From Escherichia phage ev243: 45,560 nt of DNA. Shown piece after piece: positions 8,801 through 11,800 of the stretch. Each line of letters starts with the position of its first letter. Positions within the stretch are counted from its first letter, which is position 1. Location of the stretch: the sequence record NC_049955.1. One strand, written 5' to 3'. The position numbers were made by a program.

Positions 8801-11800
8801 TATCCGGTGATGAGCGATATCCCGGCACTGTCAGATTTGATCACCAGTATGGTGGCCAGTGGCTATGACTACCGGCGCGACGATGATGCGGGCCTGTGGA
8901 GTTCAGCCGATCTGACTTATGTCATTACCTATGAAATGTGAGGACGATATGCCAACACCAAATCCTCTGGCACCGGTGAAAGGGGCCGGGACCACACTGT
9001 GGGTTTATAAGGGGAACGGTGACCCTTATGCGAACCCGCTTTCAGACGTTGACTGGTCGCGTCTGGCTAAAGTTAAAGACCTGACGCCCGGCGAACTGAC
9101 CGCTGAGTCCTATGACGACAGTTATCTCGATGATGAAGATGCGGACTGGACCGCGACCGGACAGGGGCAGAAATCTGCCGGAGATACCAGCTTCACGCTG
9201 GCGTGGATGCCCGGAGAGCAGGGGCAGCAGGCGCTGCTGGCGTGGTTTAATGAAGGGGATACCCGAGCCTATAAAATCCGCTTCCCGAACGGCACGGTCG
9301 ATGTGTTCCGCGGCTGGGTCAGCAGTATCGGTAAGGCGGTGACGGCGAAGGAAGTGATCACCCGCACGGTGAAGGTCACCAATGTGGGCCGTCCGTCGAT
9401 GGCAGAAGATCGCAGCACGGTGACGGCGACAACCGGCATGACGGTGACACCCGCCAGTGCTTCCGTAGTGAAAGGGCAGAGCACCACGCTGACCGTGGCA
9501 TTCCAGCCGGAGGGCGCAACCGACAAGAGCTTCCGTGCGGTGTCTGCGGATAAAACAAAAGCCACCGTGTCGGTCAGTGGTATGACCATCACCGTGAAAG
9601 GTGTTGCTGCAGGCAAGGTCAACATTCCGGTCGTATCCGGTAATGGTGAGTTTGCTGCGGTTGCAGAAATCAACGTCACCGCCAGTTAATCCGGAGAGTC
9701 AGCGATGTTCCTGAAAACCGAATCATTTGAACATAACGGTGTGACCGTCACGCTTTCTGAACTGTCAGCCCTGCAGCGTATTGAGCATCTCGCCCTGATG
9801 AAACGGCAGGCAGAACAGGCGGAGTCAGACAGCAACCGGAAGTTTACTGTGGAAGACGCCATCAGAACCGGCGCGTTTCTGGTGGCGATGTCCCTGTGGC
9901 ATAACCATCCGAAGAAGACAAAGCTGCCTTCCATGAATGAAGCCGTTAAACAGATTGAGCAGGAAGTGCTTACCACCTGGCCCACAGAGGCAATTTCTCA
10001 TGCTGAAAACGTGGTGTACCGGCTGTCCGGTATGTATGAGTTTGTGGTGAATGATGCCCCTGAACAGGCAGAGGACGCCGGGTCTGCAGAGCCTGTTTCT
10101 GCGGGAAAGTGTTCGACGGTGAGCTGAGTTTTGCCCTGAAACTGGCGCGTGAGATGGGGCGACCTGACTGGCGCGCCATGCTTGCCGGGATGTCATCCAC
10201 AGAGTATGCCGACTGGCACCGCTTTTACAGTACCCATTATTTTCATGATGTTCTGCTGGATATGCACTTTTCCGGGCTGACGTACACCGTGCTCAGCCTG
10301 TTTTTCAGCGATCCGGATATGCATCCGCTGGATTTCAGTCTGCTGAACCGGCGTGAGGCTGACGAAGAGCCTGAAGATGATGTGCTGATGCAGAAAGCGG
10401 CAGGGCTTGCCGGAGGCGTCCGCTTTGCCCCGGACGGAAATGAAGTTATCCCCGCTTCCCCGGATATGGCGGGCATGACGGAGGATGACGTAATGCTGAT
10501 GACAGTATCAGAAGGGATCGCAGGAGGAGTCCGGTATGGCTGAACCGGTAGGCGATCTGGTCGTTGATTTAAGTCTGGATGCGGCCAGATTTGACGAGCA
10601 GATGGCCAGAGTCAGGCGTCATTTTTCCGGTACGGAAAGTGATGCGAAAAAAACAGCGGCAGTCGTTGAACAGTCGCTGAGCCGACAGGCGCTGGCTGCA
10701 CAGAAAGCGGGGATTTCCGTCGGGCAGTATAAAGCTGCCATGCGTATGCTGCCTGCGCAGTTCACTGACGTGGCCACGCAGCTTGCAGGCGGGCAAAGTC
10801 CGTGGCTGATCCTGCTGCAACAGGGTGGTCAGGTGAAGGACTCCTTCGGCGGGATGATCCCCATGTTCAGGGGGCTTGCCGGTGCGATCACCCTGCCGAT
10901 GGTCGGGGCCACCTCGCTGGCGGTGGCGACCGGTGCGCTGGCGTATGCCTGGTATCAGGGCAACTCAACCCTGTCCGATTTCAATAAAACGCTGGTCCTT
11001 TCCGGTAATCAGGCGGGACTGACGGCAGATCGTATGCTGGCCCTGTCCAGATCCGGGCAGGCGGCAGGGCTGACGTTTAACCAGACCAGCGAGTCACTGA
11101 CGGCGCTGGTGAATGCCGGTGTGCGTGGTGGTGAGCAGTTTGAGGCAATCAGCCAGAGTGTGGCGCGTTTCTCCTCTGCATCCGGCGTGGAGGTGGACAA
11201 GGTCGCTGAAGCCTTCGGGAAGCTGACCACTGACCCGACGTCTGGGTTGACGGCGATGGCGCGCCAGTTCCATAACGTGACGGCGGAACAGATTGCGTAT
11301 GTTGCTCAGTTGCAGCGTTCCGGCGATGGGGCCGGGGCATTGCAGGCGGCGAACGAGGCCGCAACGAAAGGGTTTGATGACCAGACCCGTAAACTGAAAG
11401 ATAACATGGGTACGCTGGAGACCTGGGCAGACAAGACTGCACAGGCATTCAAATCCATGTGGGATGCGGTGCTGGATATTGGTCGCCCGGACTCCTCTGC
11501 AGATATGCTCGCCAAAGCTGAAAAGGCTTTTGATGAAGCGGATAAAAAATGGCAGTGGTATCAGAGCCGAAGCCACCGGCGCGGTAAAACGTCAGCATTT
11601 CTTGCCAATCTCCGGGGGGCATGGGAGAAGAGAGAGAATGCGCGACTTGGGCTTTCAGCCGCCACGTTGCAGGCAGATCTTGAAAAGGCCAGTGAGATGG
11701 CAGCAAAAGATCGGGCCGAGTCTGAGGCATCACGGCTGAAATATACCGAAGAGGCGCAGAAGGCTTACGAACGCCTGCAGACACCGCTGGAGAAATATAC

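What the first reader, a model, noticed from the sequence alone, without database searches (positions are those of the whole stretch)
10095..10115. Programmed -1 frameshift producing the G-T tail chaperone fusion
Seen: canonical slippery heptamer G GGA AAG at 10103-10109, six codons before the G stop; the -1 frame reads VFDGELSFALK... through to 10543, overlapping the H start. Established knowledge: conserved G/GT frameshift of long-tailed phages.
Basis: partly seen in the sequence, partly recalled or inferred. Interest (0 to 1): 0.35.

Follow-up and report, generated by a model that had tools for sequence, protein, structure and literature searches.

The report
Lambda G/GT tail-chaperone frameshift site

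Summary
GGGAAAG lies at 10103-10109 and reads G GGA AAG in the frame of a gpG homologue (9705-10127). Five sense codons and a TGA follow it. The -1 frame stays open for 144 codons to 10543, encodes a gpT homologue, and overlaps the ATG of the tape-measure gene H (10536) by 8 nt.

The window is a complete lambdoid genome running cos end to cos end. Its G-T segment is 97.5% identical to phage lambda, and the 79 nt around the slip site (10086-10164) match lambda and phage 434 exactly. This is therefore the same site where frameshifting was shown experimentally in lambda (Levin et al. 1993).

The heptamer alone is not rarer than chance (8 copies against 6.1 expected). The support comes from context:
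- Position between the tail-tube and tape-measure genes.
- No Shine-Dalgarno signal or conserved start codon for T.
- An in-frame N_NNA_AAG motif inside the G/T overlap in 34 of 34 relatives, down to 36% T identity.

A downstream stimulatory RNA structure is not supported. Novelty: already known. Interest: low.

The parts
8949..9689 (+). Major tail tube gene V, the upstream neighbour. Its product is the ligand of the T domain according to the literature.
   Evidence: Pfam Phage_TTP_12 2e-70 plus Big_2. ATG 8949 corresponds to lambda V start 8955 with the window's -6 offset.
9693..9698 (+). Shine-Dalgarno sequence GGAGAG for G, 6 nt upstream of ATG 9705.
   Evidence: Read from the sequence. Anti-SD duplex energy is -6.9 kcal/mol against a local background of -3.67 +/- 2.64.
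9705..10127 (+). Gene G, the zero-frame product gpG: a 140-aa tail assembly chaperone.
   Evidence: ORF. PF06894 2e-59. TIGR01674 equivalog 2.1e-63. Matches lambda G 9711-10133.
10103..10109 (+). Slippery heptamer G GGA AAG. tRNA-Gly and tRNA-Lys re-pair to GGG AAA in the -1 frame.
   Evidence: Identical in lambda and 434. The homologous position carries a shift-prone motif in 34 of 34 relatives. Named as lambda's slippery sequence in PMC3296357 and PMC7618472.
10109..10127 (+). Dual-coding G/T overlap downstream of the slip. The zero frame reads (K)CSTVS*, and the -1 frame reads VFDGEL.
10109..10543 (+). T segment: the -1 frame, 144 codons plus TGA. It is translated only as the C-terminal part of gpGT.
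   Evidence: PF06223 2.2e-14. TIGR01715 equivalog 2.4e-55. No SD: -3.4 kcal/mol for GTG 10109 and -4.2 for ATG 10154, both at background level. The GTG is not conserved and is GCA, GTC or GCC in relatives.
9705..10543 (+). gpGT fusion coding region: 9705-10109 in the zero frame (135 codons), then 10109-10540 in the -1 frame (144 codons), giving 279 aa. Base 10109 is read twice.
   Evidence: Derived. Phage 434 annotates the same joined CDS.
10522..10529 (+). Strong Shine-Dalgarno AGGAGGAG for H, lying inside the end of T.
   Evidence: Duplex energy -10.3 kcal/mol.
10536..13115 (+). Tape-measure gene H (859 aa), the downstream neighbour. Its ATG overlaps the T stop by 8 nt. Its product is the ligand of the G domain according to the literature.
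   Evidence: PF06791 3e-71 and PF09718 2.8e-21. ORF.

Best explanation
This is the phage lambda-type programmed -1 ribosomal frameshift that makes two tail assembly chaperones from one translation start.

1. **Initiation.** Ribosomes start at ATG 9705.
2. **Normal reading.** Most ribosomes read straight through to TGA 10125-10127 and make gpG (140 aa).
3. A few percent slip back one base while the P- and A-site tRNAs (Gly, Lys) sit on GGA AAG. The tRNAs re-pair with GGG AAA, and reading resumes at G10109 in the -1 frame to TGA 10541-10543. The result is the 279-aa fusion gpGT.
4. **Why the site is slippery.** Slipperiness rests mainly on A_AAG. E. coli's single tRNA-Lys (mnm5s2UUU) pairs better with AAA than with AAG.
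5. **Function, as established in lambda.** The shared G part binds the tape-measure protein H. The T part recruits the tube protein V. The high gpG:gpGT ratio, about 30:1, is needed for tail assembly, and neither protein is in the finished virion.

Shown here are the anatomy, the homology, the base-for-base identity of the site with lambda, the lack of an independent T start signal, and the conservation of the site. Taken from the literature on lambda, and inferred to hold here, are the actual frameshifting, its rate and the protein interactions.
For: - **Coordinates and frames.**
- **Homology.** G and T are equivalogs of lambda G and T.
- **Gene order.** V-G-T-H.
- **Identity to lambda.** 97.5% overall. 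There are no differences from 10086 to 10164 among the window, lambda and 434.
- **Existing annotation.** A joined GT CDS or a slippery-site feature is annotated in 434, phi80 and LLS.
- **No independent T start.** SD duplex energies are -3.4 and -4.2 kcal/mol against -6.9 for G and -10.3 for H, with background at -3.67. GTG 10109 and ATG 10154 are not conserved in relatives.
- **Narrow entry into the -1 frame.** In several relatives the -1 frame is closed by stop codons only 3-8 codons upstream of the motif, so entry must occur at the motif.
- **Conservation.** 34 of 34 relatives, from 8 phage records and 26 species genomes, carry an in-frame shift-prone motif in the overlap. T identity falls as low as 36%. 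The motifs are GGAAAAG (26), GGGAAAG (4), GGTAAAG (3) and AAAAAAG (1).
- **Literature.**
  - PMC5009743: the 30:1 ratio, G binding H, T binding V, and absence of both proteins from virions.
  - PMC3296357: GGGAAAG, about 96% of ribosomes staying in the zero frame, and dependence on tRNA-Lys thiolation.
  - PMC7618472: the G_GGA_AAG site.
  - PMC4066793: G_GG.A_AA.G among the most efficient heptamers and A_AA.G the best tetramer in E. coli.
Against: Nothing here contradicts the explanation. The limits are as follows.

- The heptamer by itself is no rarer than chance.
- No protein or ribosome data exist for this particular phage.
- The 34 relatives are not phylogenetically independent.
- Six amino-acid differences in G and three in T relative to lambda are untested, although none touches the slip site.
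Confidence: 0.97

Rival explanations
1. T is an ordinary separate gene, translated from its own start (GTG 10109 or ATG 10154). The heptamer is incidental.
For: The mechanical ORF list gives a GTG-initiated 144-aa ORF at 10109-10543. Many database records, including the lambda RefSeq entry, annotate T as a stand-alone CDS.
Against: - No SD precedes either start: -3.4 and -4.2 kcal/mol, which is background level.
- GTG 10109 is replaced by GCA, GTC or GCC in relatives, and the Met at 10154 is Phe in the phi80/HK225 group.
- The T-frame protein conservation begins right after the heptamer, upstream of any conserved Met.
- The in-frame shift motif is present in 34 of 34 relatives.
- The lambda literature describes gpGT as made by frameshifting (PMC5009743, PMC3296357).
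Confidence: 0.02
2. The fusion arises by transcriptional slippage, with RNA polymerase deleting or inserting a base, rather than by ribosomal slippage.
For: Transcriptional slippage does produce fusion proteins in some bacterial and phage genes (PMC5009743, PMC4256274). The VT1-Sakai homologue has a run of six A at this site.
Against: The window has only A3 and G3 runs at the site, which from general knowledge is far shorter than the homopolymer tracts that give appreciable polymerase slippage. The conserved feature across relatives is the frame-specific N_NNA_AAG motif, not a homopolymer run. Frameshift level in lambda responds to tRNA-Lys modification, which is a translational property (PMC3296357).
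Confidence: 0.01
3. The frameshift is ribosomal but needs a specific downstream RNA structure as a stimulator: a three-way junction at 10117-10187 that starts 7 nt after the heptamer. This would resemble dnaX or IS elements.
For: - The MFE fold of 10110-10209 places an 8-bp closing helix 7 nt after the heptamer, at -37.8 kcal/mol.
- 89.6% of cells are paired in 8 relatives, with one G-C to A-U compensatory pair between two clades.
- The covariation score exceeds all 500 shuffles.
Against: - The z-score is only -1.46, and 14 of 200 shuffles fold as well.
- RNAalifold does not recover the closing helix and gives a covariation term of only -1.84.
- In 31 sequences one closing-helix pair (columns 39:101) is unpaired in 19. 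The GC-rich inner helix breaks without compensation in the most divergent members.
- The region encodes the most conserved part of T (LAREFGRPDWRAMLAGM), which alone explains the nucleotide conservation.
- The structure was derived from the window sequence itself, which inflates these controls.
Confidence: 0.1

Closest known systems
Bacteriophage lambda G / G-T programmed -1 frameshift (Levin, Hendrix & Casjens 1993; Xu, Hendrix & Duda 2004, 2013, 2014)
   Same: Essentially everything matches.
- Same heptamer G GGA AAG at the same distance from the G stop.
- Identical 79 nt around the site.
- 140-aa G and a 144-codon T segment.
- Same V-G-T-H order, and the same 8-nt T/H overlap.
   Different: 21 nucleotide differences over 839 nt, giving six amino-acid changes in G and three in T. 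None is in or next to the slip site. The coordinate offset from lambda is -6. H is 859 aa here against 853 aa in lambda.
phi80 / N15 / HK225 / mEp213 / LLS-type G-T frameshift
   Same: Homologous G and T, the same gene order, and a shift motif at the homologous codon positions with the same 6-codon distance to the G stop.
   Different: These phages use the non-canonical heptamer G GAA AAG, so only the A-site A_AAG re-pairs perfectly. Their T is shorter (113-115 aa). T identity to the window is 55-62%.
E. coli dnaX tau/gamma -1 frameshift (A AAA AAG)
   Same: A -1 ribosomal slip that depends on tRNA-Lys at A_AAG in E. coli (PMC5009743).
   Different: dnaX has an upstream SD-like stimulator and a downstream hairpin, shifts at about 50%, and yields a shorter product. 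Here no SD-like element lies 6-17 nt upstream, no downstream structure is supported, the rate in lambda is low at about 4%, and the product is longer.
Tail assembly chaperone frameshifts of other long-tailed phages (P2 E/E+E', HK97, mycobacteriophages, TP901-1)
   Same: Two overlapping ORFs between the tail tube and tape-measure genes, joined by a programmed frameshift that sets a fixed ratio of short and long chaperone (PMC5009743, PMC10885494).
   Different: Those proteins share little or no sequence similarity with lambda G and T, and they use various slip sequences and sometimes +1 or -2 shifts. The window's copy belongs to the lambda sequence family itself.

Membership tests
Lambda-type G/GT tail assembly chaperone with programmed -1 frameshift | The two ORFs lie between the major tail (tube) gene and the tape-measure gene. 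| tested here: met
   V (PF16461) 8949-9689, G 9705-10127, T 10109-10543, H (PF06791 and PF09718) 10536-13115.
Lambda-type G/GT tail assembly chaperone with programmed -1 frameshift | The upstream ORF is homologous to gpG. | tested here: met
   TIGR01674 equivalog at 212 bits against a cut-off of 74. PF06894 2e-59.
Lambda-type G/GT tail assembly chaperone with programmed -1 frameshift | [quoted passage not shown] | tested here: met
   The -1 frame is open 10064-10543. TIGR01715 equivalog at 185 bits against a cut-off of 77. PF06223 2.2e-14.
Lambda-type G/GT tail assembly chaperone with programmed -1 frameshift | A slippery X_XXY_YYZ heptamer sits in the zero frame inside the overlap. | tested here: met
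   G GGA AAG at 10103-10109, in phase with ATG 9705.
Lambda-type G/GT tail assembly chaperone with programmed -1 frameshift | The downstream segment has no translation start signal of its own. | tested here: met
   Anti-SD duplex energy is -3.4 kcal/mol for GTG 10109 and -4.2 for ATG 10154, against a background of -3.67 +/- 2.64. Neither start codon is conserved in relatives. Sequence signals only; absence of initiation was not measured.
Lambda-type G/GT tail assembly chaperone with programmed -1 frameshift | The shift site and two-frame arrangement are conserved in relatives. | tested here: met
   34 of 34 loci have an in-frame N_NNA_AAG in the overlap. In 27 the G stop is the 6th codon after the motif, and in 7 it is the 1st or 2nd.
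Lambda-type G/GT tail assembly chaperone with programmed -1 frameshift | Two proteins are made from one start at a fixed low ratio (about 4% frameshift, roughly 30:1). | not testable with these tools
   Known for lambda from the literature (PMC5009743, PMC3296357). It is inferred here from the identical site and flanks.
Lambda-type G/GT tail assembly chaperone with programmed -1 frameshift | Both products are needed for tail assembly and are absent from virions. G binds the tape measure and T binds the tube protein. | not testable with these tools
   Literature on lambda only (PMC5009743, citing Xu et al. 2013 and 2014). No solved structure of a relative exists in the PDB.
-1 PRF signals with a cis stimulator (dnaX / IS3 / IS911 type) | A stable hairpin or pseudoknot lies 5-9 nt downstream and is supported by covariation. 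| tested here: inconclusive
   A candidate helix lies 7 nt downstream, but z = -1.46, RNAalifold does not recover it, and its pairs break without compensation in divergent relatives.
-1 PRF signals with a cis stimulator (dnaX / IS3 / IS911 type) | An SD-like sequence lies 6-17 nt upstream of the heptamer. | tested here: not met
   10086-10097 reads GCAGAGCCTGTT, with no GGAGG or AGGA-type element. The nearest GAGGA is at 10071-10075, 28 nt upstream.

The most novel reading that the evidence does not exclude
The nucleotide-level conservation just downstream of the slip site may reflect an undescribed RNA element that tunes the gpG:gpGT ratio, rather than protein constraint alone. The element would run from 10117 to 10187, with a closing helix 7 nt after the heptamer and a GC-rich inner hairpin at 10144-10177. 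The evidence neither excludes nor supports this. The fold is not significantly more stable than shuffles, and the helices decay in the most distant relatives.
Probability: 0.08. Interest if true: 0.3.

Novelty: already known. Interest (0 to 1): 0.05.

Why it matters
For annotation, the T ORF should be recorded as the joined gpGT product (9705..10109, 10109..10543), not as a free-standing GTG-initiated gene. Many deposited lambdoid records, including the lambda RefSeq entry and the records identical to this window, still annotate it as stand-alone.

Biologically this is the founding example of the tail-chaperone frameshift. It sets a fixed chaperone ratio needed for tail assembly, so finding it intact here adds no new knowledge. 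It does confirm that this phage has a functional lambda-type tail assembly module.

Tried and rejected
- **Bare heptamer significance.** Not significant: 8 copies against 6.1 expected.
- **Downstream stimulatory structure.**
  - The single-sequence fold gives z = -1.46.
  - The RNAalifold consensus recovers only an invariant GC hairpin 34 nt downstream, with a covariation term of -1.84.
  - Pair counts on 8 and on 31 sequences show one clade-level compensatory pair but many uncompensated breaks.
  - Rejected as unsupported.
- **Upstream SD-like stimulator.** None lies within 6-17 nt.
- **Independent T initiation.** Rejected on SD energies and non-conserved start codons.
- **Rfam and tRNA scans.** Nothing at the site. 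The only Rfam hit in the window is the cIII thermoregulator, and there are no tRNAs.
- **PDB sequence search with the 279-aa fusion.** No relative found.
- **Viral-contig scan with T.** It returned only 97-99% identical copies, so it was uninformative for conservation. The genome-contig scan with a T alignment gave the diversity that was needed.
- **Genome-wide control of in-frame heptamers.** It was partly confounded by ORFs that overlap larger ORFs.
- **Xu et al. 2013 (PMC3762263).** Could not be retrieved. Levin et al. 1993 was not looked up and is cited only through reviews and my own recollection.

Full report
**Observation.** The window sequence around the finding shows GGGAAAG at 10103-10109.
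- The ORF that begins at ATG 9705 puts codon boundaries at GCG | GGA | AAG, so the heptamer reads G GGA AAG in the zero frame. This is the canonical X_XXY_YYZ phase.
- Five sense codons (Cys Ser Thr Val Ser) and TGA at 10125-10127 follow, so the stop is the sixth codon after the heptamer.
- Re-reading from G10109 in the -1 frame gives VFDGELSFALKLAREMGRPDW... for 144 codons, up to TGA 10541-10543.
- The next gene starts at ATG 10536, which gives an 8-nt overlap.
- Every coordinate and sequence detail in the finding is correct.

**Is it more than chance?** The heptamer alone is not. It occurs 8 times in the window on both strands, against 6.1 +/- 2.3 in dinucleotide-preserving shuffles. The signal lies in the configuration.
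- Mechanical ORFs of at least 100 aa contain 52 in-frame XXXYYYZ sites, with a median -1 run of 13.5 codons after the site.
- The four sites that run further past their zero-frame stop than G's all lie in ORFs that overlap a larger ORF. The -1 frame there is either that larger ORF or another non-coding frame.

**What the genes are.**
- The 140-aa zero-frame product matches PF06894 (lambda tail assembly chaperone G, 2e-59) and the NCBIfam equivalog TIGR01674 (2.1e-63).
- The -1 segment matches PF06223 (minor tail protein T, 2.2e-14) and the equivalog TIGR01715 (2.4e-55).
- Upstream lies the tail tube gene V (PF16461, 2e-70). Downstream lies the tape-measure gene H (PF06791, 3e-71; PF09718, 2.8e-21).
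- The window is a complete lambdoid genome. It starts with the cos end GGGCGGCGACC and ends ...CCGACAGGTTACG. Overall it is closest to Escherichia phage 2G7b.

**Relation to lambda.**
- The G-T segment is 100% identical to eleven deposited lambda-like phage records such as Lambda_2E9 and 1H12. It is 98.6% identical to phage 434 and 97.5% identical to lambda NC_001416 9711-10549.
- In the three-way alignment there is no difference from window 10086 to 10164. The heptamer and about 17 nt upstream and 55 nt downstream are identical to lambda.
- The 21 nucleotide differences give six substitutions in G and three in T, all away from the site.
- The phage 434 record annotates the joined GT product here. 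The lambda RefSeq entry and the identical Lambda_2E9 record annotate T as a separate CDS. That is an annotation convention, not evidence.

**Comparative test.** I fetched progressively more distant relatives in two groups.
- Phage records:
  - PhiR12_5 (78% nt identity)
  - VT1-Sakai
  - HK225
  - phi80
  - mEp213
  - LLS
- Intact prophage copies: 26 from single-species representative genomes of Enterobacterales, found with a T-domain alignment. T identity to the window runs from 71% down to 36%.

The results were as follows.
- All 34 loci, counting the window and lambda, keep a G-like ORF whose end overlaps a T-like ORF in the -1 frame.
- All 34 have an in-frame N_NNA_AAG inside the overlap. 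The motifs are G GAA AAG (26), G GGA AAG (4), G GTA AAG (3) and A AAA AAG (1).
- In 27 loci the G stop is again the sixth codon after the motif. In 7 it is the first or second.
- In the rest of these G genes, in-frame A_AAG occurs at 0.0084 per codon, so about 0.13 would be expected per ~16-codon overlap. The loci are related, so this is not a formal P-value, but the motif persists while the surrounding sequence changes.
- In several relatives the -1 frame is closed by stop codons 3-8 codons upstream of the motif. Ribosomes must therefore enter the T frame at the motif.
- The invariant core is A_AAG. Systematic measurements in E. coli find A_AA.G to be the most shift-prone tetramer, and G_GG.A_AA.G to be among the most efficient heptamers (PMC4066793; also PMC5009743).

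**Independent start for T?**
- The mechanical ORF list offers GTG 10109. However, anti-SD duplex energies upstream of GTG 10109 (-3.4 kcal/mol) and of the first ATG at 10154 (-4.2) are at the local background of -3.67 +/- 2.64.
- G scores -6.9 and H scores -10.3.
- GTG 10109 is GCA, GTC or GCC in relatives. The Met at 10154 is Phe in the phi80/HK225 group.
- Protein conservation in the T frame begins immediately after the heptamer. Independent initiation is therefore very unlikely.

**Stimulatory elements.**
- No SD-like sequence lies 6-17 nt upstream of the heptamer.
- Downstream, the MFE fold of 10110-10209 is a three-way junction whose closing helix starts 7 nt after the heptamer, at -37.8 kcal/mol. 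The z-score is only -1.46, and 14 of 200 shuffles fold as well.
- RNAalifold on eight relatives recovers only an essentially invariant GC-rich hairpin 34 nt downstream, with a small covariation term of -1.84.
- Pair counting on 8 and on 31 sequences shows one clade-level G-C to A-U compensatory pair. It also shows many uncompensated breaks in the divergent members.
- The region encodes the most conserved stretch of T (LAREFGRPDWRAMLAGM), which accounts for the nucleotide conservation.
- I treat a 3' stimulator as unsupported.

**Mechanism.** The steps below are taken from the literature on lambda and are inferred to apply here because the site and flanks are identical.
- About 96% of ribosomes stay in frame and make gpG. 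About 4% slip -1 at G GGA AAG and make gpGT.
- The rate depends on the mnm5s2U34 modification of tRNA-Lys (PMC3296357, PMC7618472).
- The G moiety of both proteins binds the tape measure gpH. The T moiety binds the tube protein gpV and nucleates its polymerisation.
- A ratio of about 30:1 is required, and neither protein is in the virion (PMC5009743, citing Levin et al. 1993 and Xu et al. 2013 and 2014).
- A recent preprint notes that a bacterial Avs sensor recognises the N-terminal core shared by gpG and gpGT (PMC12803255).
- No solved structure of a sequence relative is in the PDB.

**Verdict.** The feature is the archetype itself and is already known, so interest is low (0.05). The practical output is an annotation correction: T should be recorded as part of a joined GT CDS. 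A further practical note is that trypsin cannot yield a junction-spanning peptide, because the junction residue is Lys135.

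Noticed in passing
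window 1-240 and 45321-45560: The window is a complete linear lambdoid phage genome of 45,560 bp. It begins with the cos left end GGGCGGCGACC and ends ...CCGACAGGTTACG, as lambda does. Overall it is a mosaic closest to Escherichia phage 2G7b (LR595866): 95.5% identity over 93% of the left 25 kb, and 97.3% over 83% of the right 24.5 kb. No record in the phage collection matches it fully.
   Followed up: partly
window 41639-42721 (-): A full-length Gram-negative porin gene (Porin_1, 3.5e-152) sits on the opposite strand, between the antiterminator Q gene (41052-41450) and the ORFs at 43526-44481 that I took to be the lysis genes (not tested). It is a cargo gene of the OmpC/OmpD/NmpC type, and related phage records annotate it as such.
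   Followed up: partly
window 22584-26422 (-): A block of non-lambda cargo genes lies in the b-region position. It contains an omptin-family outer-membrane protease (25469-26422, 2.8e-130), a TAP-like alpha/beta hydrolase (23798-25282) and a SAM-dependent methyltransferase (22584-23252). The integrase follows at 26905-28068.
   Followed up: partly
window 31615-31673 (-): Rfam Lambda_thermo, the cIII thermoregulator RNA element, matches full length at 88.5 bits. It is the only Rfam family found in the window. No tRNA genes were found.
   Followed up: no
L091-L105, L116, L124, L131 (genome-contig loci): G-T sequences 97-99% identical to the window turn up in assemblies labelled as unrelated organisms, including Neobacillus, Oceanobacillus, Kitasatospora, Chromatium, Shewanella, Pseudomonas, Leeuwenhoekiella and Enterococcus. 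They sit on ~48.4-48.5 kb contigs or on tiny ones, many of whose names record coverage of about 1x. This looks like lambda DNA contamination or spike-in in those assemblies, not real prophages.
   Followed up: no
L129 (Shigella flexneri CP182557, 4204326-4207752): The T-like frame is open for only 28 codons around the match start, and no G-like ORF abuts it. This suggests a disrupted G-T region in a decayed prophage. I excluded it from the conservation count.
   Followed up: no
window 10536-13115 (+): The tape-measure protein H is 859 aa here against 853 aa in lambda (10542-13103). This is a 6-residue length difference in the protein that sets tail length.
   Followed up: no
L001 (lambda RefSeq), L003, L004, L005, L006, L008: Many deposited lambdoid records annotate T as a free-standing CDS with assorted internal or GTG starts (for example 1059-1472 in PhiR12_5 and 1050-1358 in VT1-Sakai) instead of the joined GT product. 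Only 434, phi80 and LLS among those inspected annotate the frameshift.
   Followed up: yes
window 33975-36090 (-) and 32679-33233 (+): ORF sizes in the immunity region match lambda's rexB (144 aa), rexA (279 aa) and cI (237 aa), and a SieB superinfection-exclusion homologue (PF14163, 1e-29) lies nearby. This suggests lambda-type immunity. The rex and cI assignments rest on ORF size and my recollection of lambda only.
   Followed up: no
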